Shown one piece after another: positions 11,366-35,245 of a stretch of DNA of 64,000 bases. Below the pieces are notes generated by a model that saw nothing but the letters and a program-made list of their open reading frames with translations, was not told the DNA's origin and did not search any database. The stretch covers positions 6,293 through 70,292 of the forward strand of contig PDSF01000041.1 in the NCBI GenBank assembly GCA_002748355.1, in the 5' to 3' direction. Each line of letters begins with the position of its first letter. Position 1 is the first letter of the stretch. The DNA comes from Planctomycetota bacterium (lineage in GTDB: Bacteria > Planctomycetota > UBA1135 > GCA-002748355). The position numbers and the translations under genes were made by a program.

Positions 11366-11374
11366 TCGGCTAGC

Positions 11375-14252: not shown

Positions 14253-14254
14253 TC

Positions 14255-15190: not shown

Positions 15191-17302
15191 ATGCCGAAGT
15201 TCGTTCTCAATGTCCTCGACGGTCCCGGAAAGGGCCGCTCGATTCCCCTGTCCCTGGATGTGCCGCTGCTCATCGGTCGCAAGCCGAGCAATCAGCTGCG
15301 CTTGTCTCATGACGAGAAGGTCTCGGGCCAGCATGCCGAGATCCGCAGCGAAGGCGAGATGCTCATCCTGAAGGATCTCGGTTCGACCAACGGCACTCGC
15401 GTCGACGGCAAGAAGATCCAGGAGGTGCCGATCGGGCATGGCGATCGCTTCCAGATCGGCGAGACCATGCTGCAGCTGATCGATGTGCAGCAGGATGCTG
15501 GCGTCGACGAAGACATGTCGATCCAGATTGACCAGGCGATGCTTGCCAAATCGCGCAAGCGCAGCCCGGCGACACTCCTGTTCCTGCTGGTCCTGATCTT
15601 GGCCGGCGGCGCGGCGTACTACTTCTTCGGCAGCCCAGCTTCGAGTGCGGGGCCTGCCCGAGCCAGGGGGGCGAAGCTCGTTGAGATTCCTGGCAACCTG
15701 CTCCAGGCGGCGGATGCCTACTTCGAAAAGGGTGCGAACTTATGGCTGCCGCTCGCCAGCGGTGGGAGCTTCGATCTGGGGACGGAGGCCAGTAGTGGGC
15801 GTCACGGGCTTTGGGCTCAGCTTGGTGCTGCCGAGGGAACGGAGCTTGGGGAGAGCGACCGCTTTGCCGGCTCGGCGAGCCCGGCCATCCCCGTGCAGGA
15901 GGGGCGCGCCTACCGGGCGCAGGCGATGCTGGCAGCTGACGAAGGCGTGCGGGTTGCGCTGCGCTTGGCCTTCTACGCCGCGGCCCCGGCCCCCGATCCG
16001 GAGGCCGAGCCTAATCCCGAAGCGGAGCAACGCCTGATCCGAGCACCTCTCCTCGTGGTCGGTTCGAGGCTCGAAGCCTTACAGGGTCGGGACTTCGCTG
16101 AGCGCAGCGTGAGCGCTCTTGCCCCAAGCGGTGCTGTCGAAGCCCGCGCCATCCTGGTCGCCGTGCTCGCGCCCGGTAGCAGCCAGGAATGCAGCGCCTA
16201 CGCCGACGACATCGCTCTCGTCCAGCAGGGGGCGGCCGATCCGGTGCTGGAGCTGGCGGGTAGTCGGCTGCAGGTGACAGGGAGCAGCCAAGGGGTAGAT
16301 AGCCCTGAGGTCGGCGGAATCGGGAATGCCTGGCTTCGGATCGCCGGGCGAACGGCGTTGGCTTCTTTCGCTAGTGCTCCAGCCGAGAACGATCCCTCAC
16401 TGCAAGCGCTGGCGAAGCTGCTGCCGCTACCGCTGAATGACATCTTTGGCGATATGCGCGTGCTCAAGGGCGAAGGTGCCTTCCAGCTGCGGAGCAGCGC
16501 TGCTGGGGCGATGCAGTTCCTGGTGCCCGGCGACATGCTTGGAGGGCAGGGCTACCTGGTGCGGCGCGAAGCTCAGAAAGAGGGTGCCCACAAAGGGCGC
16601 ATCTTTGAGGGGCATCGTGGAGCGGCTCAGGTCGCGGACGTGAGCGGGATCTTGCTCGGCGAGGGCATCGTGCGCTTCTTGCTGAGCTGGCCAAAGGCTG
16701 GCGCCTTCCGGGCCGATGCGCTGCCGAATGGAGCGCTGCGTTTCACCATTGACTTCGGGGGGGAACTCGACATCCAACTCGAGTTCCAAGACGAGGTGCG
16801 GAAGGCTCAACGGCTCTACCGCGAGGCGTTGGCGGCCGATCGCGCAGGGCAGATCGGAAAGGCCCTGCAAGCGTATGCCGAGTTGGTCAAGAGATGGCCC
16901 TTCGACCAGGATGCCACCAACAAAGCTCGGGCGCGGCGCTCCCAGCTGCTACTCGCCGGGAAGGAGCGCTTCCTCGCCCAGCAAAGGGCTTTCGACGAAG
17001 CAAAGGCCTTCGGTTACGAGGGGCTCTATCGGCGCTTGCTCAAGGACCTGGACCAGATGCTTCTGACCTATGCGGGCGCAGAAAAAACAGCGTTTTATGA
17101 GCAGGCGCAGAGCTTCCGCGCAGAAGTGCACAAGGCTCTGACGCAGCTGCTGCGGGAAAAGGCCAAGGGGGTTGCCGAGCGCTATTTGCGCATTCACGAC
17201 AGCCTTGTCGAGAGCGACTTGAAGAGACTCGCGGAACTCGTTGAGCGCTATATGCGCCAGGAATTCCCCGAGAGCGAAGCAGTACAAAAACTCGGGCGCT
17301 GA
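15191..17302 (+). CDS. FHA-domain membrane protein with a CBM-like periplasmic domain and a C-terminal TPR/coiled region
   Basis: IGR...VSGQH...DLGSTNGT FHA motifs; one TM helix; GNLLQAADAYFE...PVQEGRAYRAQA resembles CBM4/9. Confidence 0.8.
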   Translation: MPKFVLNVLDGPGKGRSIPLSLDVPLLIGRKPSNQLRLSHDEKVSGQHAEIRSEGEMLILKDLGSTNGTRVDGKKIQEVPIGHGDRFQIGETMLQLIDVQQDAGVDEDMSIQIDQAMLAKSRKRSPATLLFLLVLILAGGAAYYFFGSPASSAGPARARGAKLVEIPGNLLQAADAYFEKGANLWLPLASGGSFDLGTEASSGRHGLWAQLGAAEGTELGESDRFAGSASPAIPVQEGRAYRAQAMLAADEGVRVALRLAFYAAAPAPDPEAEPNPEAEQRLIRAPLLVVGSRLEALQGRDFAERSVSALAPSGAVEARAILVAVLAPGSSQECSAYADDIALVQQGAADPVLELAGSRLQVTGSSQGVDSPEVGGIGNAWLRIAGRTALASFASAPAENDPSLQALAKLLPLPLNDIFGDMRVLKGEGAFQLRSSAAGAMQFLVPGDMLGGQGYLVRREAQKEGAHKGRIFEGHRGAAQVADVSGILLGEGIVRFLLSWPKAGAFRADALPNGALRFTIDFGGELDIQLEFQDEVRKAQRLYREALAADRAGQIGKALQAYAELVKRWPFDQDATNKARARRSQLLLAGKERFLAQQRAFDEAKAFGYEGLYRRLLKDLDQMLLTYAGAEKTAFYEQAQSFRAEVHKALTQLLREKAKGVAERYLRIHDSLVESDLKRLAELVERYMRQEFPESEAVQKLGR

Positions 17303-17317
17303 AGCGGAGCAAGCAGC

Positions 17318-18979
17318 ATGGCAAAACAAGGCATCGGCTTCGACCTCAGCGGTGAAGAAGCCCTCCTCCTCAGCGGACGCAAGAAGGGAGCGGCCTTCCA
17401 GGTCACTCGTTTCGAACGGCTTGCGCACGAGGAACGGCGCGTGCTTGGCGCGCGGGCGCCACTCGGCGCGATCTGCACCGGGCTGAGCGGTCGCGACCTG
17501 ATCCTCAAATACTCGCGGGTGCCGACCGTCCCGGATTGGCAGTTGGCGAAGCTGATGGAGTTCGAGGTCGAGGGCATCGCCCAGCAGGCGGGCGGCAAAC
17601 TCAGCTATGACTACAACCTGCTGCCGGTCCAGAACGAGATGACGGGGGAGGACACCGTCCTCCTGGCCCTGGCCAAATCCGACGCCCTGGATGGGCTGAT
17701 CGCCAAGGCCGCCACGGCGAAGGGCCGGGTGCAGGCCTTCACTCCCAATGCGATTGCGGCCTACAACTGTTTCCTGCAGTTCGGGCACATCAGCGATGAG
17801 GTAACGCTCATCGCCTGGATGGGAGAATCCTCCATTGACCTTGCTTTGCTGCGTGGGGCGAGCTTGCTCTTCGCCCGCAATGTTACTGGTGGTCTCGGGG
17901 TTCTCGATGGCGCGATCCGCCAATCCTTCAACGTGCGTGAGGAGCGGGCGCGCAAGATTCGCCGAGAGCTGCTCGACCTCGATCCCAGCAAGCGCGGCCA
18001 GCACGCGAGCTCGCAAGAAGAGAAGGTCGCCCACGCCGTGCAGGGGGTCCAGGGGCAGTTGCAAGCGGCCCTGCGCTCGACCCTCGCCTTCTGCCAGTCG
18101 CAGATCCAAATCCAGGACCTGAGCCTTGATCGTGTTTTGCTTTGTGGGCCGGGGGCGAAGTTGCGAGGCCTGGACCGCTTCCTTGCCCAGGGCCTGGGCA
18201 GCGCGGTCGAAATCTGGGACCCGGTGCCAGGCTGCGAACTCTCGCAATGCCCGGCCGAGGATGCTGCTGCCTTGGAAGAGGCCGGCCCCGAGTCGGTCTT
18301 GGCGCTTGGGCTAGCTCTGGCGCCCTGCTTCGAGGATCTCTATTCGATCGAGATCCTCCCCGAGGCGGTAAAGAAGCAGCGCCGTTTCCAAGAGCGCTAT
18401 GTGTGGAACATCGCCGCGGCCTTGCTCGCCGTGGCCTTCTTGGTCTTCAGTTTCTTCAAGTCGCAGGGGCGTTTCGAAGAACTGCAGCAGGCTGAACGAG
18501 TCCTTCGCCGTCAGGCTGACACGATCAAGAGTCGGCACCAAAGAACGGAGAAGCTCATTGCGGGCATCGAGGAAAACTCCGAGAGGATCCGCAAGCTGGA
18601 AGAACTGGCGGTGCCGCTGCACGCCAGCATTCGCACCCTGCGCACCCTGCGGACTTCTTTGCCGGAGAACCTCTGGGTTACCGAGCTGCGTTCGCAGCGC
18701 GGACCGATTTCCTGGGAAAAGCCGGTCAAGCGGTCGTCTCGCGGCCGGCCCAGGCAGCTCATCCGTCCCTACCTCAGCATCGAGGGATTGGGGGTGCCCC
18801 TTGCCGGGAAAACCCCGCGCGTGAGTTATACGAAGTTCAAGACGCTGCTCGATGGCGTCCTCCCGATGGTCGAGTCGAGTGCTGGAAGCCGAGACGGAGC
18901 GTTCCGCTTTACCTGCAAGCTCGACTTCCTCCTCCGGACTCCGGAGAAGAAGACGGACAAGGAAGAGGAGGGGCGCTGA
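17318..18979 (+). CDS. PilM-PilN fusion (type IV filament alignment complex)
   Basis: Actin-like PilM (GFDLSG..., VLLCGPGAKLRGLDRFL), then TM, coiled coil and PilN-like LRTSLPENLWVTEL. Confidence 0.8.
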   Translation: MAKQGIGFDLSGEEALLLSGRKKGAAFQVTRFERLAHEERRVLGARAPLGAICTGLSGRDLILKYSRVPTVPDWQLAKLMEFEVEGIAQQAGGKLSYDYNLLPVQNEMTGEDTVLLALAKSDALDGLIAKAATAKGRVQAFTPNAIAAYNCFLQFGHISDEVTLIAWMGESSIDLALLRGASLLFARNVTGGLGVLDGAIRQSFNVREERARKIRRELLDLDPSKRGQHASSQEEKVAHAVQGVQGQLQAALRSTLAFCQSQIQIQDLSLDRVLLCGPGAKLRGLDRFLAQGLGSAVEIWDPVPGCELSQCPAEDAAALEEAGPESVLALGLALAPCFEDLYSIEILPEAVKKQRRFQERYVWNIAAALLAVAFLVFSFFKSQGRFEELQQAERVLRRQADTIKSRHQRTEKLIAGIEENSERIRKLEELAVPLHASIRTLRTLRTSLPENLWVTELRSQRGPISWEKPVKRSSRGRPRQLIRPYLSIEGLGVPLAGKTPRVSYTKFKTLLDGVLPMVESSAGSRDGAFRFTCKLDFLLRTPEKKTDKEEEGR

Positions 18980-18981
18980 AC

Positions 18982-19866
18982 ATGGACCTCAACGATCTCT
19001 GGCAAGAACACAAGACTTGGATCCTCGGCATTGTCGCTGGGCTGATCCTCTTCCTCGCCTGTAACTCAGTGATCGGCGGCAGCTTCGGCACCGAAAAGCT
19101 CAAACGGGCGATGGCCGGGCACCAGCGCAGCGTGGCCAGTAGCAAGATGTATGGCCAAGAAGAAGAACGGCAGGCGCGCAAGCTCAGCAAGGAGCTGGAG
19201 CAGCGCCTGCTGAGCTTGCAGCAGCGCAGCTACTTCGACCCGCAAGACCGTTACCTGCTTGAGGGCAAGGGCGATTACTCGACGCATTATCTGACCGTGA
19301 CCAGTGAGGACGAGATAGAGATGCGGCGGGCGATGAATACCGCCAACGTCGACTTCCTCGCGGCAAGGCTCGGTCTGCCGGCGAGTTCGCCGACCGAGCG
19401 GGATGAGGTGCAGAGGATGCTCCTTGGGCTGGATCTGGTCACCGATGCCTTGACCCGCCTGCTCGCGGCCTCCGATGAGGTCCTGACCCAGTTGCCCGGC
19501 CAGCACGGGCTGCGTGCGGTCGACAAGATCCAGATCGAGGCGGCGCCCAGGAAGCGAAACCGAAGCTCCCGTGGCTCCAAGGCTCCGGTCCAGCTTGGGG
19601 AGGAGGTCACGGTGCGCCTGGTCTTTCGTTCGGACTCGGTCACCGTCGAGCGTTGGCTCGAGCGCCTCCTGGGCGAGCGGGCTCTGCCGAGCTCGGGGGA
19701 CGAGGACGAGGTGAGCGAAGCGGAAGGCGGCGAGGCCGAGGCCGAGCACCAAGGCCCGCGCCCCATCCTGCTCAAGTCTCTGCAAGTCGAGGACGTCGGG
19801 CGCGAGTCTGGTGAGCCTCTGAAGGTGAGCGTCACGCTGTTGGCCCTGATTGCTAAGGAGAGCTGA
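18982..19866 (+). CDS. PilO/GspM-like protein
   Basis: N-terminal TM, coiled coil, ferredoxin-like beta strands; position after PilMN. Confidence 0.55.
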   Translation: MDLNDLWQEHKTWILGIVAGLILFLACNSVIGGSFGTEKLKRAMAGHQRSVASSKMYGQEEERQARKLSKELEQRLLSLQQRSYFDPQDRYLLEGKGDYSTHYLTVTSEDEIEMRRAMNTANVDFLAARLGLPASSPTERDEVQRMLLGLDLVTDALTRLLAASDEVLTQLPGQHGLRAVDKIQIEAAPRKRNRSSRGSKAPVQLGEEVTVRLVFRSDSVTVERWLERLLGERALPSSGDEDEVSEAEGGEAEAEHQGPRPILLKSLQVEDVGRESGEPLKVSVTLLALIAKES

Positions 19867-19868
19867 GC

Positions 19869-22751
19869 GTGCAGCTTCGCAAAGAACAGATTCTCTTCGT
19901 CGTTGTCCTGCTGATCGTGGTGTGGCTTTTCGCCTCCGATAAGGACGGCCGCATAGGCCGCAAGCTTCGGCGTCCCAGCAAGAAGGCCGTTCCGGCTATC
20001 GAACTACCCAACTCTTCGCTGGCCCAAGGAGCACAGAAAGAACTGGAGCGCGATGCCCGCGACCTCTTCCTCAAGCCCTCGGCCAGCAAGCCTTTGCCGC
20101 CGCTCGAATTGCCTCTGCCGGCGCTTGCCGATCTGCCGGTGCAGCTGCCGCTGCTTGAGCCTGGGCCGGTATTGGCCCGGGCGCATCTTTTGCGCGTAAA
20201 GCTTGGCGACTTGCCGAGGGTGGCCGCCCAGGCGAGGGGTGCCGAGGCGGGGGGCAGCGAGGACTCAGGTCCGGGTTCCGAGACCTCGGATGGGGCGCCG
20301 GATGAGGATCCGGATGGGAATGGGGCCGCAGATGGGGCGCCGCAGGAAGCTCCAGCAGGGCCGTCGTTTGAGCAGGAGCCCAGCACGGTCGTCGATCACA
20401 GCGACGAGTATGACCTCCTCACTCTGAATGATGGCCGCAAGGTCTGGGGCCAAGTGCGTGGGGAGCATCCCTTCGCCTATGGGCGTCCAGAGGACTCCAA
20501 TGTCTGGGCGTTGATCGGGCCCTTCAAGCAGCCCGTTCTCTTCCAGACCTATCGTCCGGAGAAGGGCACGGCTGGCATCACCAACCCGTGGCCTGCCGAA
20601 AAGGTGCTACGGGTCGAGTTTGCCAAGCGCGTCGAGAACAAGATCGCCTTGATGCAGCGGCGCATTCCCGATGACGACAGCGGGCTCAGCCTGCGTAAGG
20701 CCTTTGTGCTCGACTTGCTCCAGAATCATCGCGACAGCGAGGATGCTCTCAAGGAGGCGGCGCGGCAGGCGCAGCGGCACATCGAGCTGGCGCCCCATTA
20801 CATCGACGGCTACGAGCTGCTGGCGTTCGTCTACCATGCGACCGGCCAGTTCGAGAAGGAACTCGAGTTCTACGACAGCCTGGCGAACGGACCGTTCAAA
20901 GAGGCCGCATTCGTGCACGTTGGCCGGGCGGTGGTCGCGCGCAAGCTCGGCATGCACAGCTTGGCCGTGCGCGAGCTCGAGGCCGCGATCGCTAGAGATC
21001 GTAGCTACAGCCGAGCCTGGTTGGAGCTGGCTCGCTGTGCTCTCCAGGCCGGTGCTTCGGAGAAGGCGGTGGAGCATGCTCGCCGGGCCGCTTTGACCCG
21101 GGCCTCGGGCATGGAGGCGCGCGTCTCGATCGAGGTGGACCTGGTCCTCGTGCAGGCTTTGCTGGCAGGCGGGCAGTTCCAGGAAGCCGCCACCAGCCTG
21201 CTCGAGTTCGAGAATCGTGTTCGCGACCCGCAAGCTGCTCTGCTTGGCGAGATGCGCAAGTTGCGTGCTGCCGCCCAGCTCGGCCTCGGCAAGATCGCTG
21301 AAGCGCGCGCCAGCTATGAAGAGGCGGCGACCTTGGCACCCAGCGATGCCGAGGCCGCACTCGGGGCCTGTGTCGCCTCGCTGCGCAGTGGCGATCGCGC
21401 GGCGGCCCTGGCCCACGCCAAGGATGCGGCCCGGCGCGACCCCTTGCTGCGCGGCCGCGCCTACGCGGCTGAGGCCCTGCTCCTCGATTTGGCCGGCGGC
21501 CACGCCGAGGCGTTGGCGCGGCTGGCCGAGGCGCGCGAGATTGCGCCGCGAGGTCCCTACCTGCTCTATCTCCTGGGGCGCAGTTTGCGTTTGGCCGGAG
21601 AGTTTGGCGAGGCGCGGGAGGTCTTGCAGCTGCTCTTGCAGGAGCGCAGCGACTTCCTCGAATCGATGGCCGAGCGTGCTCTCGCCACCATGCAGCTGGC
21701 GCAGAGCGAGGCCAAGAACGACCCCGCTGGCGCCCTCGCGATGTTGGAGGAGGCCGAACGCTTTGCCGCGCGGGTGGCTCGTGACGAGGCCGAGCGGGGC
21801 AAGGATCCGATCTTCCTCGACCTCCTCGGGACCATTCGCTACCACCAACTCGATGGCGAAGGTGCTAAGGAAGCCTTCGAGCAGTCCCTGGCCTGGAAGC
21901 CCGGTCCCTACGCCAAGATCATGCTTGCCTTGATTGCCTACCGGCAGGGCTATACCGATCGGGCCATCACCGAGCTCGTGACCCTGACCCAGGAGATCCG
22001 CGATCCGAAGGACCGCTTCCGTAAGTTCGCGGAGAGGGCTCGCGATGCCATCATCGACCATCGCGGTAAGCGTCTCTTCGTCGATGAGTTCGAGCGGGAG
22101 CTCGGTGAGCTTTGGCAGCCCGAGTCGCGCCACCAGGCGAAATGGATGGCGGTGAATGGCCGGGTGCAGCTGCGCGGTACGTCGCAGGGCGAAGATCGTC
22201 TGGCCCGTTGCCGCTACACCGTGGACCAGGCCCGCAACTTCCTCGAACTGTCCACCGAGATCACTTTGTTGAAGGGCTTCAGTGCCCGCAAAGCGGTGTT
22301 GCGCATCAGTGATCTGCGCAGCTCCAATCTCAGCAGCGCCCGCAAATCGCGCTTCCTTCTGGAGGTCGGCTACGACGCCACGCGGGCGCAAGGCGCGGGT
22401 GGAGCCTTCGTCCACTTCCACCAGAATCATGGTGGTTCAAAGAAGGACCTCAGCGAGATTGGTGCCGGAGACCCCGGTTTCCCAGCGGAGCTGCGCATCG
22501 AGCGGGGCAAGCCTTTCACTGTCGTCGTGCGACGTCTCGGTGCCCAGCGGCAGAGCGGTCCCGGCGCCCGGCAAAAGGAGACGCTTGTCGTGCTGATCGA
22601 CGGCTTCGAGGTGCTGCGCCGTGATGTGGTGCAGGCCTTTGGTCTGCGCCAAAACCCGCTCGCCATCGACTTCCACGTTCAGGGTCTCGAGGGAACGAGG
22701 CTCGACACCGCCTTCGACAAGTTCCGTCTCGTGCGCTACGGCGAGGGATGA
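19869..22751 (+). CDS. Membrane-anchored TPR-rich protein with a C-terminal beta-sandwich (lectin-like) domain
   Basis: GTG start; TM; proline-rich linker; DLLTLNDGRKVWG barrel; many TPRs; beta-rich C-terminus (FVDEFER...W...). Confidence 0.75.
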   Translation: MQLRKEQILFVVVLLIVVWLFASDKDGRIGRKLRRPSKKAVPAIELPNSSLAQGAQKELERDARDLFLKPSASKPLPPLELPLPALADLPVQLPLLEPGPVLARAHLLRVKLGDLPRVAAQARGAEAGGSEDSGPGSETSDGAPDEDPDGNGAADGAPQEAPAGPSFEQEPSTVVDHSDEYDLLTLNDGRKVWGQVRGEHPFAYGRPEDSNVWALIGPFKQPVLFQTYRPEKGTAGITNPWPAEKVLRVEFAKRVENKIALMQRRIPDDDSGLSLRKAFVLDLLQNHRDSEDALKEAARQAQRHIELAPHYIDGYELLAFVYHATGQFEKELEFYDSLANGPFKEAAFVHVGRAVVARKLGMHSLAVRELEAAIARDRSYSRAWLELARCALQAGASEKAVEHARRAALTRASGMEARVSIEVDLVLVQALLAGGQFQEAATSLLEFENRVRDPQAALLGEMRKLRAAAQLGLGKIAEARASYEEAATLAPSDAEAALGACVASLRSGDRAAALAHAKDAARRDPLLRGRAYAAEALLLDLAGGHAEALARLAEAREIAPRGPYLLYLLGRSLRLAGEFGEAREVLQLLLQERSDFLESMAERALATMQLAQSEAKNDPAGALAMLEEAERFAARVARDEAERGKDPIFLDLLGTIRYHQLDGEGAKEAFEQSLAWKPGPYAKIMLALIAYRQGYTDRAITELVTLTQEIRDPKDRFRKFAERARDAIIDHRGKRLFVDEFERELGELWQPESRHQAKWMAVNGRVQLRGTSQGEDRLARCRYTVDQARNFLELSTEITLLKGFSARKAVLRISDLRSSNLSSARKSRFLLEVGYDATRAQGAGGAFVHFHQNHGGSKKDLSEIGAGDPGFPAELRIERGKPFTVVVRRLGAQRQSGPGARQKETLVVLIDGFEVLRRDVVQAFGLRQNPLAIDFHVQGLEGTRLDTAFDKFRLVRYGEG

Positions 22752-23431
22752 GCATGCAGTACAGAAGAGAGCCCATGCCGATGCGGAGCCAGCGAGGCCG
22801 CGCCGGTTTCACCCTGATCGAGCTTCTGATCGTCATCGGCATCATCTCCGGTCTGATGGTCTGGATCGTGCCGACCTTGTTGGGCGCGAGTCAGGAGACG
22901 GCGAAGATCAAGGAGACCCAGGTTCTGCTCCATGAGCTGGCCTCGCGGGCGGAGTCTTATGCGAACCAGCGTCGCTTCGGTGACTATCCTCCCGACAACT
23001 TCCGCGACCCCGCGCGCAAGCTCTTGGTCGTTGCCGACTCGATCAATCCCGGCATCGAGTCGCTCGTTGCCTTCCTCTCACGCGAAGACTCGAAGGACGA
23101 GGACCTGAGCCGCTTGCAGGAGAAGTTTTCGAATACCGACAATGACAAGTCCGATGCGCCGATCGGCCGTCTCGATCGCCCGGACAAGCTTGAGATCGTC
23201 GATGCCTGGGGCAACCCGATCGTCTACTTCACTCGCCGCAGCTACCGCCAAGAGCCCCAGACCTATCGCAACCAATATGGGGAAGACTTCTCGGTCTCAG
23301 CATGGAAGCGCAAAGACGGGAGCTTCTTCAACAACCGGCACTTCCAGCTGTTTTCTGCCGGGCCGGATGAGAAATACGGGACCCCGGACGATATAGGCCA
23401 CAACTTCGTGCCCGAAGAGCAGGGCGACTGA
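22748..23431 (+). CDS. Major pseudopilin-like protein (GspG-type)
   Basis: Class III signal G|FTLIELLIVIGII; DAWGNPIVY; SAGPDEKYGTPDDI. Confidence 0.88.
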   Translation: MSMQYRREPMPMRSQRGRAGFTLIELLIVIGIISGLMVWIVPTLLGASQETAKIKETQVLLHELASRAESYANQRRFGDYPPDNFRDPARKLLVVADSINPGIESLVAFLSREDSKDEDLSRLQEKFSNTDNDKSDAPIGRLDRPDKLEIVDAWGNPIVYFTRRSYRQEPQTYRNQYGEDFSVSAWKRKDGSFFNNRHFQLFSAGPDEKYGTPDDIGHNFVPEEQGD

Positions 23432-29720: not shown

Positions 29721-30943
29721 GTCCTTCAGCAAGCGATGCGAGGCGGGGCAGCAGCAGCGGTATGACGCTGCTGGAACTGATGGTCGTTCTCGGGCTTTTG
29801 GTCATGCTGCTCGGGGGACTGGTGACCATCCTGGATCGCTCGCTCTTCATCTGGCAGGTGGGGGAGGAAGGCGCGGATCTGGAAGCGCGGGCGTACTCGG
29901 CCCTCGACAGTATCTCCGGCGATCTCGACCGTATGGCACCGCTCCAGTCGAAGAGCTGGCGCCTTGGCCGCGTGGCTGTGCTGCAGGGGCGTGAGGGGCA
30001 GGTGAGTGCCACTGGTCGCTTCGTTCTTGATCACCTGCCCTATCTTGAGGATGGCAAGCCAGTCGCCATTGAGGATACCGAGGGCAAGGCCCAGCTCTTC
30101 GACTGGTATCCGCGGCTGCGCTTCGTCATGCAGCTCGACCCGATCGAGGCCGAGCGCCGGCTTCGTGGACAGCTGCGCCGGCAGATCCTCGAGGACGAAG
30201 GCGACTTGGGCCGCTCCGAGCTCGAACGCCGGGTGCGCGAGAAGCTGGTGGACCATAGTCCGGAGACTCTCGGGGAGATCCTGCTGCGCGTGCGCCCGCA
30301 GCTTGAGGGCGAGGGCGTCTACCTCGATCTCTATCGGGACTGGCGAAGCCTGGGCGAAGTGAAGGCGGGGCGCTGGGTCGACGGCGCCAGGATGCCGGAT
30401 CCGGGTGAGCCTTGGCTGCGGCACTTGCTCTACGTGGGCCTGAGGCTGCGTTCGCAGTTCACCAGTGATTTCGACGCGGCTCCTGGAGACGAAGCTGCGG
30501 CGGAGTCGGCTTGGGATTCGGCGCGTGCCGGGCTCCTCGGAAGCGATCATCCTGTGCTCGGCTTCAGCCTCGACTTGGATGCACAGAGCGAAGAGGATCC
30601 ACTCGACGACGTCATGCCCAAGGCCTACGAGCTTACGGTGGTCGTCGACGGCGGACCGGGTCGATCGCAGCTGGCCTTCCTCAGCAGCGCCATCGATGCC
30701 AAGGAAAAGCACATCCAAGTGGACTACCCCGAGCGCCTGCCAAACGGCGAGCGCAACCATATAAAGATCGGCCCCGAGTGGATTCGCTACAGCGGGATTG
30801 ACGGCAATCGCTTGCTTGGGGTGCATCGAGGCGTGCGCAATACCAAGGCGCGGCCGCATGCCGCCGCTGCGAGGATCCACTCTGGCCGCGAGGCAGTGCT
30901 GCGCGTGCCGATAGCAGTCTCCCGGAGCAACTGGAATGGATAG
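29717..30943 (+). CDS. Minor pilin (GspJ/PilW-type) with one C-terminal beta-module
   Basis: G|MTLLELMVVLGLL; DDVMPKAYELTVVV; ATGA overlap with the preceding gene. Confidence 0.82.
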   Translation: MSPSASDARRGSSSGMTLLELMVVLGLLVMLLGGLVTILDRSLFIWQVGEEGADLEARAYSALDSISGDLDRMAPLQSKSWRLGRVAVLQGREGQVSATGRFVLDHLPYLEDGKPVAIEDTEGKAQLFDWYPRLRFVMQLDPIEAERRLRGQLRRQILEDEGDLGRSELERRVREKLVDHSPETLGEILLRVRPQLEGEGVYLDLYRDWRSLGEVKAGRWVDGARMPDPGEPWLRHLLYVGLRLRSQFTSDFDAAPGDEAAAESAWDSARAGLLGSDHPVLGFSLDLDAQSEEDPLDDVMPKAYELTVVVDGGPGRSQLAFLSSAIDAKEKHIQVDYPERLPNGERNHIKIGPEWIRYSGIDGNRLLGVHRGVRNTKARPHAAAARIHSGREAVLRVPIAVSRSNWNG

Positions 30944-31376
30944 GCGCAAGACCCAGCAAGGCGGCTTCACGCTGATCGAGATCCTGGTTGCGCTGGCGAT
31001 CCTAGGGCTCGGTGTCGGGACTGCGGTCGGCGGCTTTGTTCGGGGCGCGACGACCCAGGCCCAGGGCGTATTGGTGCGTGATGCCTCGCGCATCGCCGAA
31101 ATCGTCCAGGAGCGCTTGCGGAGCGAGGACCTACTCGGGCGCGACTTCGATGCCCGGCCCCAGGACCTTCTCGACCAGAAACTCGTGGGCTATCCCGGCC
31201 TTCGCTACGACCTCGTCTTCGAGGGCGAAGTGCAGCTGGGCTTCCCCCTCTACGTTCGCTTGACCGTCCGCTGGCTCAGCCGCGGGCAAGAGGTCAGCGA
31301 GATCTTTCGTTTTCCTCTTCCGCGTGGCGCTAGCCTCCCCGCGCGGATCCGAGCGGCACAGGAGTCCTCCCGATGA
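30936..31376 (+). CDS. Minor pilin (GspI/PilV-type)
   Basis: G|FTLIEILVALAILG; 146 aa; YVRLTVRW strand. Confidence 0.85.
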   Translation: MDRRKTQQGGFTLIEILVALAILGLGVGTAVGGFVRGATTQAQGVLVRDASRIAEIVQERLRSEDLLGRDFDARPQDLLDQKLVGYPGLRYDLVFEGEVQLGFPLYVRLTVRWLSRGQEVSEIFRFPLPRGASLPARIRAAQESSR

Positions 31377-32875
31377 AGAAGCCCGCCTTAGTCTCTGTCC
31401 TGCTGGTGATAGCGCTCCTCCTCGGGCTCTCCTCCAGCGCCGCCGCCGAAACCCTGCGTCTGCGCAACGGCGCTCTGCTCGTCGGGAAAATCGAGAATCC
31501 CGATGAGAACGGCTTCGTCTTCCTGCGCATTCGCGATGGCGGGAGGATCCACTTGCGTTGGGAGGATCTGATCCTGCGCGATGCCGAGCGGCTGCGCGCC
31601 TCCTTCCAGCTCCTTGGTCAGAGCGACGGCGACGTGGTGAGCTTCCGCGCCTTCCGGGTCTGGCGCAAGACCAGTGGGGCACCCAAGGCGTTGACCGGTG
31701 AGCTGCTGGGGCGCGATGGGCAGAAGATCCGCCTGCGCATCCTGGGCAATACCATCGAGCTGCCGCTGATGAGCTTGACCGGGACGCCGCAGTTCGTGGA
31801 TGTGCCGATTCGCGAGATCCTGACCCCTGACGAGATCTACCGGCGCAAGCTGGGCGAGATGAATCCGGGGGAGGATGCTGACAAGCACGTGCTGCTCGCC
31901 GACTACCTGATCCGCGTGGAAGAGTTCCAGCGGGCGAAGGAGCATCTGCAGGAGGCGCAGAGGCTCGGCAGTGGGAGCCAACCCAACAAGATCATCGGCC
32001 TGCTTGAGCGTGTGGAGAGCATGCTTGCGAACAAGGCGGAGGCCGATCACTTGCGTGAGATCTCGGTCGCGGCCAACCGCAACAAGTTTCCGAAGGCCTT
32101 GCAGCTGATGGCTTCCTTCGAAGAGAAGTATCCGAGCAGCAAGCTCGCCAGCGAGTTCAGCCGTCGCAAGGCCTTGGTCATGAAGGCGCGTGAGCGCTAC
32201 TTGATCGACAAGGTCACCGAAGACTGGTACCGCTATGCCCGTGACGAAGCAAAGAAGCTGGCCCGTTCGCGTGACCTGGGGGTCGAGCAAGTCCAGGTGA
32301 AGGCTGCCGAAGACATGGGCCAGGCGATTCGTGAGCGCATCGCTCGTATGAGGAAAATCGAAGTGCCGGAAGTCGAGGCGCTTTTCCGCCGGCGCTTCGA
32401 GTTTCCGCTCGTGCCGAAAATCCAGCCGGCGACCTATGGTCAGGGCTCCTGGATTCTGGGCGAGAAGGATCTGATCGCCGGAACCGCGCGCGGCAAGCTC
32501 GCAGAGAAGGCGGAGTCCAATACTATTACGCTGGGGAACCAGGTGCGGCGCGAGCGGGAGCGGCGTCTGCGCGAGTTCATTCGTAGCCAAGGCCGGCGGG
32601 CTGGCCAGAACCCTCAGCAAGCGGCGCAACGACTCGACAGCCCTAGCGATTGGTGGCAGGAGGCTTCGACGCGGGAGCGGCAGCTCTTCATCCTGGCGAG
32701 CTATGCCGAACGTTCGGGAGACATGAAGGTCGAGAGGGCGCAGCTGCGTCCGTGCATGACCTGTGCCGCCTCGGGGCGGGTTCAGGTCCCGACCGCGGAG
32801 GCGGGGCGCATGGTTTCGGTGACTTGCCCGACCTGTCATGGGCTGAAGCACTTCCGAACCATTCGTTTCCGATGA
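31373..32875 (+). CDS. Exported protein with N-terminal small beta-barrels, helical repeats and a C-terminal CxxC...CxxC zinc finger
   Basis: Signal peptide; ETLRLRNGALLVGKI; CMTCAASG...CPTCHG. Confidence 0.75.
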   Translation: MKKPALVSVLLVIALLLGLSSSAAAETLRLRNGALLVGKIENPDENGFVFLRIRDGGRIHLRWEDLILRDAERLRASFQLLGQSDGDVVSFRAFRVWRKTSGAPKALTGELLGRDGQKIRLRILGNTIELPLMSLTGTPQFVDVPIREILTPDEIYRRKLGEMNPGEDADKHVLLADYLIRVEEFQRAKEHLQEAQRLGSGSQPNKIIGLLERVESMLANKAEADHLREISVAANRNKFPKALQLMASFEEKYPSSKLASEFSRRKALVMKARERYLIDKVTEDWYRYARDEAKKLARSRDLGVEQVQVKAAEDMGQAIRERIARMRKIEVPEVEALFRRRFEFPLVPKIQPATYGQGSWILGEKDLIAGTARGKLAEKAESNTITLGNQVRRERERRLREFIRSQGRRAGQNPQQAAQRLDSPSDWWQEASTRERQLFILASYAERSGDMKVERAQLRPCMTCAASGRVQVPTAEAGRMVSVTCPTCHGLKHFRTIRFR

Positions 32876-33867
32876 GGATGCTCTTTGGGGGCGGAGTCCT
32901 CGGTCTGGCTTTGCTTTGCTGTGCCTGCACGGGCCACCGGGTGCCCAGCCCTCGGCCGGAAACGGCTCCGTTGCCCAGCGCGGGGCCAAGCTCCCGTCTC
33001 TCCGCCGATGGCGCCTCGGCGACTACGGGGGCCGAGAGCGCAGTGGAGAAAGCTCGCATTGCCGTGCCGGCGCTGCGGGCACCGGGCTTGGCGGCCTTGC
33101 TGCCGGAGCCGGGCAGGGAGGAGACGGTGCTGCGCTACGGCGAGCGGCGAATCACCCGTGGCGATCTCTTTGAGCGGCTGCGTGAGCGGGAGCCAGCCAA
33201 GGCGCAGGAGCTGATCGAGCTGGCGCTACTGGATGCGCGGGTGCATGAGATCGCTGAGCGCGAGAAGGTCTTTGTGCCCAAGGGCGAGCTGCGTCTGGCG
33301 CTTGGCCGGGAGCTGGCGCGCATGCGCCGGGCCTACCAGCGGCGCCCGGAGGGGGCTGTGGACTTCGATGACTTCCTCATGCGCAGCTATGGCCTCGACG
33401 AGGCTGGCGCTCGCAAGCGTGCTGAGCTGCTGGCCTACCGCCGGCTACTGCGGGCCTATACCGTGCGCTTCTGGCTGCGGCAGCGGGGGCAGGTCGGTTT
33501 GCAGCTCTTTGTGGCGGCGGACGCCGAGGCCGCGGCACGGGCGCGCGAGCAGATCAGCCTGGGAGCGGACTTTGCCGCACTCGCTCAGAAGAACTCGCGG
33601 GATCAAAGCGCTCGCGGCGGTGGCCGCTTACCCCAGCTGCCGCTGGGCCTCGGGCATCCGCTCGAGAAGCTGGCACAGGGCGTGCCCGTTGGCGGACTCT
33701 CCAAGATTGCCGCTTACGGCAAGGCGGGTCCCGCCTTCGTGCGGGTGCTGAGTCGCCGGGCGCCGGATCGCCGGAGCTTTGCCGAGATGGCGGAAGACCT
33801 GCGCTCGGAGCTGGCGCGGCAGCCGATTGCCGCCCACGAACTGGCCTTATTCTTGGCGCAGAACTAG
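32872..33867 (+). CDS. Parvulin/PpiC-type peptidyl-prolyl isomerase lipoprotein
   Basis: Lipobox-like LCCAC; GADFAALAQKNSRDQSARGGGRL rotamase motif. Start moved to ATG 32872. Confidence 0.75.
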   Translation: MRMLFGGGVLGLALLCCACTGHRVPSPRPETAPLPSAGPSSRLSADGASATTGAESAVEKARIAVPALRAPGLAALLPEPGREETVLRYGERRITRGDLFERLREREPAKAQELIELALLDARVHEIAEREKVFVPKGELRLALGRELARMRRAYQRRPEGAVDFDDFLMRSYGLDEAGARKRAELLAYRRLLRAYTVRFWLRQRGQVGLQLFVAADAEAAARAREQISLGADFAALAQKNSRDQSARGGGRLPQLPLGLGHPLEKLAQGVPVGGLSKIAAYGKAGPAFVRVLSRRAPDRRSFAEMAEDLRSELARQPIAAHELALFLAQN

Positions 33868-33911
33868 CGGGCTAGAGAAGAACTCGCGCAGCGGGCTCTC
33901 CGGCTTCTGCT

Positions 33912-35018
33912 ATGCTTCGGCGCTTCTGGGCGGGGAGGGCCGAGATGATTCGACGTATCGACGAAGAAACGGGCCAGTTGCGGGACGAAGACACAGAAGC
34001 GAAGCCAGGGCCCGAAGGGCGGCTTGGCGATCTGGCGGAAGAGGTGGCGGCGGAGTCTGGGGCGGCGGCTTCTGAGTCCTCGGAGAAGAGGGCTGCGGAA
34101 GAGCCGGGACAGAAGCCGGGAGAGGCAGAAGCCGAGGGCTCCAGCTTGAGCGGCGAGGACCAGCCCTTGCCGGGAGAAGAGCCGGGCTCTGAGGCTGCAG
34201 CCGAGAGCGCGGAGCGCTGGCCCGAGGAAGCTGCGGCCGAGCCCCCGGTCTCCGAAGAGGCGGTTTGCGAGGACGCTGCCATGCCCGAAGAGGCGGCGGT
34301 GGTTCAAGATTCAGGCCCAGAGCCGGGGGGAGAGCCCAGCGAGGCGCAGGAGCTTGGCGAGGCCGCCGCCGCGCCAGTTTCGGAGGAGGAGCAAAGGCTT
34401 CAGGATGCCGAGTCGGAACTCGGCCCGGCTGCTCCCGATAGCCAGGTCGAGAAACTTCCCGAGCACCAGCTCTTCTTGGACCCGGAGGGGGAGGATCGGG
34501 AACGACTGCTCTCGGTCCTGGAGGCCCTGCTCTTCGCCTCACCCGAGCCGCTTTCCCATGCGCGCCTCTCCGAAATCGTGGGGCTTGGCATTGGCGTCGT
34601 GAAGACGGCGCTTGAGGAGCTGCAGCTGCGCCTCGACCAGGAGCAGCGCCCCTATCAGCTGGCTAGCTACGGGGCTGGATGGCGCCTCTTCACCCGCCGC
34701 GAGTTCTATCCCTTCCTCCTGCGCCTGCGCAGTATCAAGAAGGTCGAAAAACTGACGCCGGCGGCCCTGGAGACTCTTGCCATCGTCGCCTATCGCCAGC
34801 CGGTGATGCGCGCCGACATCGAAGCGATCCGCGGTGTCAAGGCGGGGCCGATGCTACGGGCCCTGCTCGACCGCAAGCTGGTGCGGGTTCTCGGCCGGGC
34901 GGAAGTCCCCGGTGCTCCGCTGCAATACGGGACGACCCAGCGTTTTCTCGACCGCTTTGGGCTGGCCAGCCTCAATGACCTGCCCTCGCTCAAAGAGTTT
35001 CAGCAGGGGCGCATCTGA
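33912..35018 (+). CDS. scpB: SMC-Scp complex subunit ScpB with a long acidic N-terminal extension
   Basis: LEALLFASPEPL, LETLAIVAYRQPVMRADIEAIRGV, GRAEVPGAPLQYGTT..FLDRFGL. Confidence 0.93.
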   Translation: MLRRFWAGRAEMIRRIDEETGQLRDEDTEAKPGPEGRLGDLAEEVAAESGAAASESSEKRAAEEPGQKPGEAEAEGSSLSGEDQPLPGEEPGSEAAAESAERWPEEAAAEPPVSEEAVCEDAAMPEEAAVVQDSGPEPGGEPSEAQELGEAAAAPVSEEEQRLQDAESELGPAAPDSQVEKLPEHQLFLDPEGEDRERLLSVLEALLFASPEPLSHARLSEIVGLGIGVVKTALEELQLRLDQEQRPYQLASYGAGWRLFTRREFYPFLLRLRSIKKVEKLTPAALETLAIVAYRQPVMRADIEAIRGVKAGPMLRALLDRKLVRVLGRAEVPGAPLQYGTTQRFLDRFGLASLNDLPSLKEFQQGRI

Positions 35019-35245
35019 AGCAGGCGTTCTGCCTGGGCAGAACAGCGGCGGTGGGCCAGCTCTCAGGGCTTGGGGCCGGTGATGCTTTGGGCCCAAGGGG
35101 CGACTGGCCCGTCTTTCGCTTTTCGAGAGACTTCTTCACTGTCCAGTTTTGGGGCTGGCTCTCGTCGCGTGCTATGCTTCTCGGCTTTTCTTCGAGGGAT
35201 CCCCCCTCGAATCTTGCCCTAGTCCGGCCTGCGAGCTCCGCTGCG

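What the first reader, a model, noticed from the sequence alone, without database searches (positions are those of the whole stretch)
15191..35018. ~20 kb coupled type IV filament/T2SS-like operon with no motor, platform, secretin or peptidase
Seen: twelve co-directional genes, seven junctions overlapping (22748, 23431, 24504, 29717, 30936, 31373, 32872). Order: FHA, PilMN, PilO-like, TPR, pilins G-H-K-J-I, Zn-finger exported protein, PPIase, scpB. No GspE/PilB ATPase, GspF/PilC, secretin or prepilin peptidase is in the window. Established: these components are required for filament assembly. Inference: this is a dedicated alignment-plus-pilin module that uses machinery encoded elsewhere, with an unusual mix of T4P-type PilMNO and T2SS-type pilins, possibly a lineage-specific TFF subtype.
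Basis: partly seen in the sequence, partly recalled or inferred. Interest (0 to 1): 0.65.

Follow-up and report, generated by a model that had tools for sequence, protein, structure and literature searches.

The report
Planctomycete pilus operon, giant tip pilin
This is a real, tightly packed operon, conserved across uncultured Planctomycetota, that encodes the membrane scaffold and five pilin subunits (one 1,738 residues long) of a pilus/secretion-type fibre; its motor, pore and peptidase genes lie elsewhere in the genome, and two scaffold proteins resemble the Akkermansia Amuc_1101/Amuc_1100 pair.

Summary
Twelve co-directional genes lie at 15191-35018. Seven junctions overlap by 1-8 nt. No ATPase, platform, secretin or prepilin peptidase is on this contig.

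Eleven genes (15191-33867) form a type IV filament module:
- an FHA-TM protein with CBM-like periplasmic domains;
- a PilM-PilN fusion;
- a PilO-like protein whose predicted fold best matches Akkermansia Amuc_1100;
- a membrane-anchored TPR protein;
- a GspG-like major pilin;
- a LamG-bearing pilin;
- a 1,738-aa GspK-like pilin without Glu5;
- two further pilins;
- an exported TPR/Cys4 protein;
- a lipoprotein PPIase.

scpB is only a conserved neighbour.

Conservation is strong. The PilMN gene is single copy in 60 of 61 genomes of the order, with one extra partial match in three fragmented assemblies. Gene order is kept in 10 of 10 order genomes inspected, in 36 of 36 full-flank loci up to the start of the giant pilin gene, and largely in 10 more distant families.

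The missing parts exist elsewhere in the genome:
- one prepilin peptidase;
- four PilB/GspE-like ATPases;
- three platforms;
- five secretins.

The likeliest motor is a conserved PilB-like/PilT-like/PilB-like/PilC-like locus. That pairing rests on elimination only.

The J and I labels are unsupported. The module meets no curated T2SS cut-off, so it does not classify cleanly. I rate it a new variant of a known kind.

The parts
15191..17302 (+). Bitopic inner-membrane protein. It has a cytoplasmic FHA domain (1-100), a TM helix (126-146), two periplasmic beta-sandwich domains (about 160-346 and 350-530) and a helical C-terminal bundle (533-701).
   Evidence: PF00498 scores 64 bits. The AF2 model has mean pLDDT 88. 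Foldseek matches the FHA domain to GarA/OdhI (E 2e-8) and the periplasmic jelly roll to CBM16/CBM4 (3oea, 2zex, 3k4z; E about 1e-6, TM about 0.7 by target). The gene is present upstream of PilMN in 36 of 36 full-flank loci.
17318..18979 (+). PilM-PilN fusion. It has an actin-like PilM domain (1-340), a conserved 'YSIEILPE' motif (compare the PilN INLLP motif), a TM helix (362-380), a coiled coil and a PilN-like periplasmic domain.
   Evidence: PF11104 scores 40.6 bits against a cut-off of 27. The family profile hits M. xanthus PilM at 9e-30 (positions 4-338) and PilN at 1.3e-5 (positions 345-465). NCBIfam Amuc_1101 family scores 91 bits, below its cut-off of 650. The gene is single copy in 60 of 61 genomes of the order; three fragmented assemblies add one partial match each.
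18982..19866 (+). Bitopic PilO-like / Amuc_1100-like protein. It has an N-terminal TM helix (14-32), a coiled coil and a ferredoxin-like C-terminal domain.
   Evidence: The family profile hits M. xanthus PilO at E 0.027. The AF2 model has pLDDT 87.5. Foldseek's best matches are the Amuc_1100 crystal structures 6lad/6kny/6laf (E 2.4e-5, TM 0.6-0.7 by target), followed by P. aeruginosa and M. xanthus PilO (E about 0.01).
19869..22751 (+). Membrane-anchored (TM 6-24) periplasmic TPR protein of 960 aa.
   Evidence: TPR_19, TPR_16 and other TPR families match. Only TPR-level resemblance to Tgl/PilW was seen. The position is conserved in relatives.
22748..23431 (+). GspG-like pilin of 227 aa, the probable major subunit. 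The prepilin motif is G|FTLIE.
   Evidence: N_methyl matches. TIGR01710 GspG scores 33.9 bits, below its cut-off of 88.85. The ortholog profile hits GspG 5wda at E 2.4e-16, including the C-terminal Ca-loop motif. PF08334 T2SSG is found in 12 of 21 orthologs.
23431..24507 (+). Modular minor pilin of 358 aa: a GspH-like N-terminus plus a concanavalin-A-like (LamG) domain.
   Evidence: N_methyl and Laminin_G_3 (residues 189-291, E 1.7e-7) match. TIGR01708 GspH scores 35.9 bits, below its cut-off of 80.
24504..29720 (+). Giant GspK-like pilin of 1,738 aa. Its class III signal lacks Glu5 (SG|LALLA). The body contains repeated modules shared with the next pilin.
   Evidence: NF037980 GspK scores 26.6 bits on the N-terminus, below its cut-off of 130. 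Among 11 orthologs, T2SSK is found in 6, LamG in 2 and Rcc01698_C in 1. An HMM of the pil408 C-terminal module finds 6 stretches here, best i-E 2.6e-5. Orthologs of about 1,460-1,990 aa (one of 1,067 aa, probably a truncated call) occur in 18 of 20 genomes inspected.
29717..30943 (+). Minor pilin of 408 aa (G|MTLLE) with a C-terminal module resembling phage tail proteins.
   Evidence: N_methyl is the only Pfam match in all 17 members of the alignment (window protein plus 16 orthologs). The profile's C-terminus hits a phage minor tail protein, 8vjh, at E 6.5e-5, and a tip-attachment-J domain at E 0.036. The 'GspJ' label is not supported.
30936..31376 (+). Small minor pilin of 146 aa (G|FTLIE).
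   Evidence: N_methyl matches at E 3.8e-8. GspI scores 22.4 and PilV 24 bits, both below their cut-offs. Nothing else is found in orthologs. The 'GspI' label is not supported.
31373..32875 (+). Exported protein of 500 aa. It has a signal peptide, an N-terminal beta domain, a TPR segment, a basic linker and a C-terminal CxxCxGxG...CPxCxG four-cysteine ribbon.
   Evidence: Alignment A6 shows the invariant cysteines. The TPR segment hits PDB entries. DnaJ_CXXCXGXG matches weakly. The position is conserved in 17 of 20 genomes.
32872..33867 (+). Lipoprotein parvulin-type peptidyl-prolyl isomerase of 331 aa.
   Evidence: Rotamase_2, Rotamase and Rotamase_3 match. The N-terminus has a lipobox-like LLCCAC. 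The position is conserved.
33912..35018 (+). ScpB with an acidic N-terminal extension. It is a conserved downstream neighbour and is probably not part of the machine.
   Evidence: SMC_ScpB scores 164 bits. A 44-nt gap separates it from the PPIase gene. It follows the PPIase gene in 16 of 20 genomes.

Best explanation
Genes 15191-33867 form one translationally coupled operon. It encodes the non-motor half of a type IV filament machine specific to (mostly uncultured) Planctomycetota.

Shown:
- The operon encodes an inner-membrane scaffold: a PilM-PilN fusion, a PilO/Amuc_1100-like partner, an FHA-TM-CBM-like protein and a membrane-anchored TPR protein.
- It encodes five prepilins: a GspG-like probable major subunit, a LamG-bearing pilin, a 1,738-aa GspK-like pilin without Glu5, and two further minor pilins.
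- It encodes two periplasmic helpers: a TPR/Cys4 protein and a lipoprotein PPIase.

Inferred:
- The single prepilin peptidase (contig C48) processes the pilins.
- The Glu5-less giant pilin and the other minor pilins form the priming/cap complex.
- The GspG-like subunit polymerises beneath the cap on a trans-encoded PilC/GspF platform, driven by PilB-like ATPases. The likeliest source is the conserved PilB-like/PilT-like/PilB-like/PilC-like locus, here split between C70 and C66.
- The fibre leaves through a trans-encoded secretin (C4 or C27 type).
- The tip displays lectin-like and phage-tail-like modules that bind polysaccharide or particles.
- The PilT-like ATPase retracts the fibre.
- The FHA domain ties assembly to Ser/Thr phosphorylation.
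- The PPIase and Cys4/TPR protein help fold or deliver the oversized pilins.
For: - Operon structure.
- PilM and PilN homology in one polypeptide.
- PilO/Amuc_1100-like fold.
- FHA plus CBM-like periplasmic domains.
- GspG-type first pilin.
- LamG pilin.
- GspK-like giant pilin without Glu5.
- Module shared between the giant pilin and pil408.
- Strict synteny in 10 of 10 genomes of the order, in 36 of 36 full-flank loci up to the start of the giant pilin gene, and largely in 10 more distant genomes.
- Near-universal, single-copy PilMN in the order.
- Machinery present elsewhere in the same genome.
- An E-T-E-F locus is present in all 12 relatives checked: four adjacent genes in 7 (confirmed from sequence in six), near-contiguous in G042, and F detached in four. 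A histidine kinase follows F, as in the Myxococcus/Geobacter pilB-pilT-pilC-pilS arrangement (recalled from knowledge, not tested).
- The two smallest genomes checked (2.3-2.4 Mb) have only two ATPase/platform sets. One is a D-E-F locus, which in the window's own genome carries its own pseudopilins; the other is E-T-E-F, which has no pilins.
Against: - No experiment, expression data or structure of the assembled machine exists.
- The motor pairing is by elimination only. The E-T-E(-F) triad also occurs in 10 of 12 complete Planctomycetota genomes that lack a detectable PilMN cluster.
- Platform homologs occur in 247 of 251 genomes of the phylum, so co-occurrence does not discriminate.
- No PilP/GspC equivalent was identified.
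- Which secretin is used is unknown.
- Sugar binding by the LamG, CBM-like and tip modules is inferred from folds, not shown.
- T2SS pseudopili normally stay periplasmic, so a GspG-like subunit could equally mean secretion rather than a surface fibre.
Confidence: 0.75

Rival explanations
1. Split type II secretion system. The operon supplies the missing GspL/GspM-like platform and a GspK-type cap, plus a second pilin set, to the incomplete GspD-E-F-G-H-I-J locus on contig C55. The whole then acts as a protein secretion piston, not a surface pilus.
For: - The C55 locus has a secretin, a GspE-type ATPase (620 bits for GspE against 553 for PilB), a platform and four pseudopilins. It has no K, L or M.
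- The first pilin of the operon is GspG-type and the giant one is GspK-type.
- A PilM-PilN fusion has the same architecture as GspL.
- PVC-type T2SS are known to lack GspLM and minor pilins in cis (PMC6668835).
- One earlier scan note reached this reading.
Against: - Both loci carry their own G- and H-like pilins, which argues for two filaments.
- The PilMN profile hits PilM/PilN and not GspL.
- A 190-kDa cap with lectin/phage-tail-like modules is hard to reconcile with a periplasmic piston.
- A pilin-less, secretin-less PilB/PilT/PilB/PilC locus would then be left without pilins or scaffold in the 2.3-Mb genomes.
Confidence: 0.17
2. Shared platform. The PilMN/PilO-like scaffold serves more than one ATPase/platform set (both E-T-E-F and D-E-F), switching between extension of an adhesive or capture fibre and secretion. 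The FHA protein acts as the phospho-dependent switch.
For: - Only one long PilMN gene was found per genome in the order, against two or more ATPase sets.
- FHA heads the operon.
- A PP2C phosphatase sits next to the lone platform gene in this genome.
Against: There is no direct evidence. This genome also has a canonical PilMNOPQ (C48) and a second long PilM-like gene (C32), so scaffolds are not generally limiting.
Confidence: 0.06
3. The genes are a conserved syntenic block of unrelated envelope proteins that does not build a filament. The pilin-like proteins would act as periplasmic or cell-surface binding proteins, as is suspected for many prepilin-motif proteins in PVC bacteria.
For: PVC genomes carry many prepilin-motif proteins of unknown role (knowledge, not tested). 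Three of the five pilins match only the N-terminal motif or weak N-terminal profiles.
Against: - The operon combines PilM, PilN, a PilO-like protein, a GspG-type subunit and a Glu5-less K-type pilin.
- The genes are translationally coupled and strictly syntenic across the phylum.
- This is the signature of a filament assembly system.
Confidence: 0.02

Closest known systems
Type IVa pilus machine of Myxococcus xanthus / Pseudomonas aeruginosa (PilMNOPQ alignment complex, PilB/PilT/PilC, minor-pilin-PilY1 priming complex)
   Same: - PilM and PilN homology (E 9e-30 and 1.3e-5, best to M. xanthus).
- A PilO-like partner.
- A set of four minor pilins plus a very large tip component.
- A likely PilB/PilT/PilC-type motor encoded at a separate locus and followed by a histidine kinase.
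- Split loci.
   Different: - PilM and PilN are fused.
- No PilP or PilQ is in the locus.
- The major subunit is GspG-type, not PilA-type.
- The large tip protein is itself a pilin (GspK-like, 1,738 aa) rather than a non-pilin PilY1.
- The FHA-CBM protein, TM-TPR protein, Cys4/TPR protein and PPIase are extra.
Type II secretion system pseudopilus and platform (GspG-H-I-J-K, GspL, GspM)
   Same: - A GspG-like first pilin with the C-terminal Ca-loop motif.
- A GspK-like Glu5-less pilin.
- The PilM-N fusion has the domain architecture of GspL, and a bitopic partner sits where GspM would be.
   Different: - All Gsp equivalogs score below their curated cut-offs.
- The fusion matches PilM/PilN, not GspL.
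- Gene order is G-H-K-x-x.
- The pilins are 1.5 to 5 times the usual size.
- No GspC, D, E or F is in the locus.
- A PilT-like retraction ATPase sits in the likely motor locus.
Akkermansia muciniphila MUL2 locus (amuc_1099-1102 with secretin Amuc_1098); Amuc_1101 = MUL2B PilM protein, needed for mucin uptake (PMC13174399, PMC12418764)
   Same: - An adjacent pair of a long PilM-type protein (the best NCBIfam hit of PilMN is the Amuc_1101 family, 91 bits, covering the PilM domain, the TM helix and beyond) and a protein with the Amuc_1100 fold.
- PVC superphylum.
- Proposed role in attachment to or uptake of glycans.
   Different: - The Amuc_1101 family cut-off (650 bits) is far from met.
- Akkermansia has an archaeal-type pilin (Amuc_1102) and an adjacent secretin.
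- Akkermansia's four-gene locus (amuc_1099-1102, per PMC13174399) holds no FHA, TPR, GspG/K-type pilin set, Cys4 protein or PPIase gene.
Modular minor pilins of Streptococcus sanguinis type IV pili (PilB with a vWA module; a lectin-module pilin) (10.1101/2021.01.27.428410, listed; otherwise from knowledge)
   Same: Pilins with grafted binding modules (LamG in the second pilin; large multi-module body in the giant pilin).
   Different: S. sanguinis is a monoderm with a Com-like T4P machinery. Its modules are far smaller, and it has no GspK-type cap.

Membership tests
Type II secretion system (Gsp) | Major pseudopilin GspG (TIGR01710 / PF08334) | tested here: inconclusive
   TIGR01710 scores 33.9 bits against a cut-off of 88.85, on the N-terminal 50 residues only. 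The window protein itself has no PF08334 hit, but 12 of 21 orthologs do. The family profile hits GspG 5wda at E 2.4e-16, including the C-terminal loop.
Type II secretion system (Gsp) | Minor pseudopilins GspH, I, J, K | tested here: not met
   Scores against cut-offs: GspH 35.9 vs 80; GspI 22.4 vs 44; GspJ 14 vs 65 (hit on the 146-aa pilin only); GspK 26.6 vs 130. T2SSK is weak, found in 6 of 11 orthologs. pil408 and pil146 orthologs match only N_methyl.
Type II secretion system (Gsp) | GspL/GspM assembly platform | tested here: not met
   The PilMN profile finds PilM, PilN, MreB and FtsA in the PDB and no GspL at E <= 1. The p294 profile and fold find PilO/Amuc_1100, not GspM. The architecture (fusion plus bitopic partner) does resemble GspL/M.
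Type II secretion system (Gsp) | GspD secretin, GspE ATPase and GspF platform in the system | tested here: not met
   None is in the window or on its contig. A separate D-E-F-G-H-I-J locus lies on C55.
Type IVa pilus (T4aP) | PilM | tested here: met
   PF11104 scores 40.6 bits against a gathering score of 27. The profile hits M. xanthus PilM at E 9e-30 and T. thermophilus PilM at 1e-27.
Type IVa pilus (T4aP) | PilN and PilO | tested here: inconclusive
   PilN: profile positions 345-465 hit M. xanthus PilN at E 1.3e-5, but the region is fused to PilM. PilO: profile E 0.027 and fold E about 0.01, weaker than the match to Amuc_1100.
Type IVa pilus (T4aP) | PilP and PilQ linked to PilMNO | tested here: not met
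   No secretin is in the window. No PilP-like lipoprotein was recognised among the operon's products.
Type IVa pilus (T4aP) | PilA-type major pilin | tested here: not met
   The first pilin is GspG-type. PilA models match only the N-terminal helix.
Type IVa pilus (T4aP) | PilB extension ATPase, PilT retraction ATPase and PilC platform somewhere in the genome | tested here: met
   The C70 PilB/GspE-like pair scores 594/581 and 590/583 bits (GspE/PilB). The C70 PilT-family protein scores 424 bits against a cut-off of 319. There is also the C66 platform, plus a separate canonical set on C48. Assignment of these to this operon is inferred, not shown.
Akkermansia MUL2 / Amuc_1098-1102 pilus-like locus | Amuc_1101-family PilM-like protein (NF045709) | tested here: not met
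   It is the best NCBIfam hit, but scores only 91.4 bits against a cut-off of 650.
Akkermansia MUL2 / Amuc_1098-1102 pilus-like locus | Amuc_1100-type protein adjacent to the PilM-like gene | tested here: met
   Met at fold level only. The AF2 model (pLDDT 87.5) best matches 6lad/6kny/6laf, at E 2.4e-5 and TM 0.6-0.7 by target. No sequence-level match was found.
Akkermansia MUL2 / Amuc_1098-1102 pilus-like locus | Archaeal-type pilin Amuc_1102 and adjacent secretin Amuc_1098 | tested here: not met
   No secretin is in the window. The pilins here are bacterial GspG/H/K-like. An Amuc_1102 homolog was not specifically searched for.
FHA-domain phosphothreonine readers | FHA fold | tested here: met
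   PF00498 scores 64 bits. The profile hits GarA at E 1e-18. Foldseek gives TM 0.9 by target. Phosphopeptide binding itself is not testable here.

The most novel reading that the evidence does not exclude
The operon, together with the conserved PilB/PilT/PilB/PilC locus, builds a PVC-specific retractile capture fibre. Its scaffold pair (PilMN plus the Amuc_1100-like protein) is homologous to Akkermansia MUL2B/Amuc_1100. A GspG-derived filament would be capped by a 190-kDa pilin and a LamG pilin. It would catch polysaccharide or particles and reel them to the secretin for periplasmic ('selfish') uptake, and the CBM-like periplasmic domains of the FHA protein would sense the cargo. If so, this is the genetic basis of macromolecule-uptake fibres in Planctomycetota, and it would recast Amuc_1100 as a PilO-class platform protein of the same ancestral machine.
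Probability: 0.2. Interest if true: 0.85.

Novelty: new variant of a known kind. Interest (0 to 1): 0.6.

Why it matters
Type IV filaments are classified from proteobacterial and firmicute models, and PVC bacteria are poorly covered. This operon adds four things.
- It is a phylum-wide, strictly syntenic cassette that joins a T4aP-type scaffold (as a GspL-like PilM-PilN fusion) to T2SS-type pilins. That bears on how T2SS platforms arose from T4P parts.
- It makes the tip pilin itself a roughly 190-kDa multi-module protein.
- It adds an FHA-CBM transmembrane protein that could couple periplasmic glycan sensing to phospho-signalling.
- It links the planctomycete scaffold to the Akkermansia Amuc_1101/Amuc_1100 pair, which is genetically tied to mucin uptake.

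It therefore gives concrete candidate genes for particle attachment or macromolecule uptake in abundant uncultured aquatic Planctomycetota, such as the CL500-15 lineage.

Tried and rejected
- Paralogous cluster in the same genome: none. Only the N-terminus of one orphan pilin (C65) and generic FHA/PilM hits were found.
- Co-occurrence of the operon with the lone platform gene across 251 genomes of the phylum: uninformative. Homologs occur in 247 of 251 genomes and E-values form a continuum.
- Does the E-T-E-F motor locus track the operon? No. The triad is present in 10 of 12 complete genomes without a PilMN hit, so exclusive pairing is rejected.
- Physical linkage to any motor or secretin in about 100 genomes: one secretin only.
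- Sequence-profile searches of the giant pilin, pil146 and the FHA periplasmic part against the PDB gave nothing significant beyond pilin N-termini, FHA, and weak CBM or phage-fibre hits.
- Sigma-70 promoter and intrinsic terminator scans at the operon ends found nothing above shuffles.
- Literature searches found no description of this cassette in Planctomycetota.

Full report
**1. What is there**

The + strand between 15191 and 35018 carries twelve ORFs with coding-type composition (GC3 0.76-0.82). They are tightly packed.
- Seven junctions overlap, at 22748, 23431, 24504, 29717, 30936, 31373 and 32872, by 1-8 nt.
- Three junctions have gaps of 2-15 nt.
- Only scpB is set off, by 44 nt.

The flanks are housekeeping genes: Ni-SOD and its protease upstream; recJ, selD and holA downstream.

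**2. The gene products**

- *Gene 1 (703 aa).* It has a cytoplasmic FHA domain (64 bits), one TM helix and a 550-residue periplasmic part.
  - With a 46-sequence alignment, AlphaFold2 gives mean pLDDT 88.
  - Foldseek matches the N-terminus to FHA domains, and the first periplasmic domain to carbohydrate-binding modules CBM16/CBM4 (E about 1e-6, TM about 0.7 by target).
  - A second beta domain and a helical bundle follow.
- *Gene 2 (553 aa).* It is a PilM-PilN fusion.
  - PF11104 passes its gathering score.
  - The alignment shows a conserved 'YSIEILPE' motif just before the TM helix, where PilN carries its PilM-binding INLLP motif.
  - The family profile hits M. xanthus PilM (E 9e-30, positions 4-338) and PilN (E 1.3e-5, positions 345-465), and no GspL.
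  - Its best NCBIfam hit is the Akkermansia Amuc_1101 family, at 91 bits, far below the cut-off.
- *Gene 3 (294 aa, bitopic).* It hits M. xanthus PilO weakly (E 0.027).
  - Its AF2 model has pLDDT 87.5.
  - The model best matches the crystal structures of Akkermansia Amuc_1100 (E 2.4e-5, TM 0.6-0.7 by target), ahead of PilO (E about 0.01).
- *Gene 4 (960 aa).* It is a membrane-anchored TPR protein.
- *Genes 5-9.* All carry class III signal peptides.
  - The first is GspG-type. Its profile hits GspG at E 2.4e-16, including the C-terminal S-GPDG...DDI loop. T2SSG is found in 12 of 21 orthologs.
  - The second adds a LamG/concanavalin-like domain.
  - The third is 1,738 aa and lacks Glu5 (SG|LALLA). 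It gives weak GspK/T2SSK matches.
  - The fourth (408 aa) ends in a module that resembles phage minor-tail / tip-attachment proteins (E 6.5e-5). That module recurs inside the giant pilin (best i-E 2.6e-5).
- The fourth and fifth match nothing beyond the prepilin motif.
- *Gene 10.* It is exported. It has a beta domain, a TPR segment and an invariant CxxCxGxG...CPxCxG ribbon.
- *Gene 11.* It is a lipoprotein parvulin PPIase.
- *Gene 12.* It is ScpB.

**3. Conservation**

- Homologs of the PilMN protein come only from uncultured 'Planctomycetota bacterium' MAGs. These include a Lake Biwa CL500-15 MAG.
- In the window's order, 60 of 61 genomes have the gene. It is single copy apart from one extra partial match in each of three fragmented assemblies.
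- In ten genomes from eight families of the order, the order FHA-PilMN-PilO-like-TPR-five pilins-Cys4 protein-PPIase-ScpB is kept. In 36 of 36 loci with full flanks, the FHA, TPR, first two pilin genes and the start of the giant pilin gene are in place; those flanks end inside the giant pilin gene.
- Across the phylum, 163 of 251 sampled genomes have a hit at E <= 1e-15.
- Ten more distant genomes largely keep the same order. Two lack the giant pilin, and three lack the p500 and ScpB genes (two of those also lack the PPIase gene).
- Complete genomes with 99-100% completeness mostly lack a hit. This suggests that the cultured Planctomycetia do not have it or have a much diverged form.

**4. The missing machinery**

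None of it is on this contig. Elsewhere the genome has the following.
- A canonical T4aP on C48: PilB, PilC, PilA, PilT, the only prepilin peptidase, and PilMNOPQ.
- A minimal T2SS-like locus on C55: GspD-E-F plus four pseudopilins, with no K, L or M.
- A PilB/GspE-like - PilT-like - PilB/GspE-like trio on C70. By score the two large ATPases are ambiguous between GspE and PilB. The middle gene passes the PilT family cut-off.
- A lone GspF/PilC on C66, beside a PP2C phosphatase and a histidine kinase.
- Three further secretins, one on C4 and two on C27.

All 12 relatives checked carry the trio and a matching platform. E-T-E-F is four adjacent genes in seven of them (confirmed from sequence in six, and followed by the histidine kinase in four of those) and near-contiguous in G042; F lies apart in the other four.

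In the two smallest genomes checked (2.3-2.4 Mb), only two ATPase/platform sets exist: D-E-F and the pilin-less E-T-E-F. In the window's own genome the D-E-F locus has its own pseudopilins.

By elimination, E-T-E-F is the best candidate motor for the operon, but this is weak.
- The triad also occurs in 10 of 12 complete genomes without a PilMN hit.
- Platform homologs are nearly universal in the phylum.
- In about 2 Mb of context from about 100 genomes, the operon is never next to a motor and only once near a secretin.

**5. Mechanism**

Shown: the operon encodes a scaffold, a pilin set and periplasmic helpers of a type IV filament machine.

Inferred:
- A trans-encoded peptidase, platform, ATPases and secretin complete it.
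- The Glu5-less giant pilin, with the other minor pilins, caps and primes a GspG-like filament.
- Lectin-like and phage-tail-like modules at the tip bind glycans or particles.
- A PilT-like ATPase retracts the fibre.
- FHA-mediated phospho-signalling gates assembly.
- The PPIase and Cys4/TPR protein help fold or deliver the oversized pilins.

The main rival is that the operon completes the C55 T2SS-like locus for secretion.

**6. Comparison with what is known**

- It works like a T4aP/T2SS hybrid. It is not a member of either by curated criteria, because all Gsp equivalogs score below their cut-offs. PilP, PilQ and a PilA-type pilin are absent.
- The adjacent PilMN / Amuc_1100-like pair parallels the Akkermansia MUL2 locus (amuc_1099-1102). 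There, Amuc_1101 (MUL2B) is a PilM protein, and mul genes are needed for mucin accumulation (PMC13174399; PMC12418764).
- Family membership is not met for Amuc_1101, and the rest of the loci differ.
- Denise et al. 2019 noted that Chlamydiae T2SS lack GspLM and minor pilins and class as 'generic' (PMC6668835). They do not mention Planctomycetes.
- I found no paper describing this cassette.
- Earlier notes of this scan report the same cassette in at least six other genomes, with similar readings. I treated them as leads and tested what I could.

**7. Verdict**

This is a real, ancient and conserved operon. I rate it a new variant of a known kind. Interest is moderate to high because of four features:
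- the PilM-PilN fusion combined with GspG/K-type pilins;
- the giant pilin;
- the FHA-CBM protein;
- the structural link to Amuc_1100.

Function, motor and secretin remain inferred.

Noticed in passing
own genome, contig C55:93818-102284 (outside the window): A minimal T2SS-like locus: GspD-GspE-GspF plus four pseudopilins (135-326 aa from the motif). No GspK, L, M or C was recognisable. It resembles the reduced PVC/Chlamydia-type T2SS.
   Followed up: partly
own genome, C70:112906-117336 and C66:22564-25294 (outside the window): A PilB/GspE-like - PilT-like - PilB/GspE-like trio. In most relatives it is directly followed by a PilC/GspF-like gene and a histidine kinase. In this genome the platform and kinase lie on another contig, next to a PP2C phosphatase.
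   Followed up: partly
own genome, C4:28535-38586 (outside the window): A short secretin (547 aa) is flanked by a 545-aa protein with a weak T2SSK match. A 1,878-aa sigma-54 activator lies nearby, carrying CBM9, HAMP, GAF and GGDEF domains.
   Followed up: partly
own genome, C27:52254-65607 (outside the window): Two unusually long secretins (982 and 926 aa) lie 7.6 kb apart, with two ExbD-like small genes between them. The pair is conserved in all 12 relatives checked. In G014 and G092 it lies within 10-20 kb of the pilin operon.
   Followed up: no
own genome, C32:19200-21727 and C60:21791-26198 (outside the window): A second long PilM-like gene (628 aa) is followed by a 209-aa bitopic protein. 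Separately, there is a pair of prepilin-motif genes (1,126 and 328 aa) in a stretch with lower GC3.
   Followed up: no
window 35051-37618 (+): An 855-aa membrane-anchored protein (TM 72-90) with no Pfam or NCBIfam match. It was found after scpB in 5 of the 20 inspected genomes. Its N-terminus looks PpiD-like (from memory, not tested).
   Followed up: no
window 33912-35018 (+): ScpB carries a roughly 200-residue acidic, low-complexity N-terminal extension. Its position after the PPIase gene is conserved across the phylum although the functions are unrelated.
   Followed up: partly
window 10457-14937 (+): A CarH-like B12-dependent MerR regulator (110 bits, below cut-off) is followed by a TPR protein, Ni-superoxide dismutase SodN and its maturation protease.
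   Followed up: no
window 41255-42241 (+): SelD (337 bits). I did not check this.
   Followed up: no
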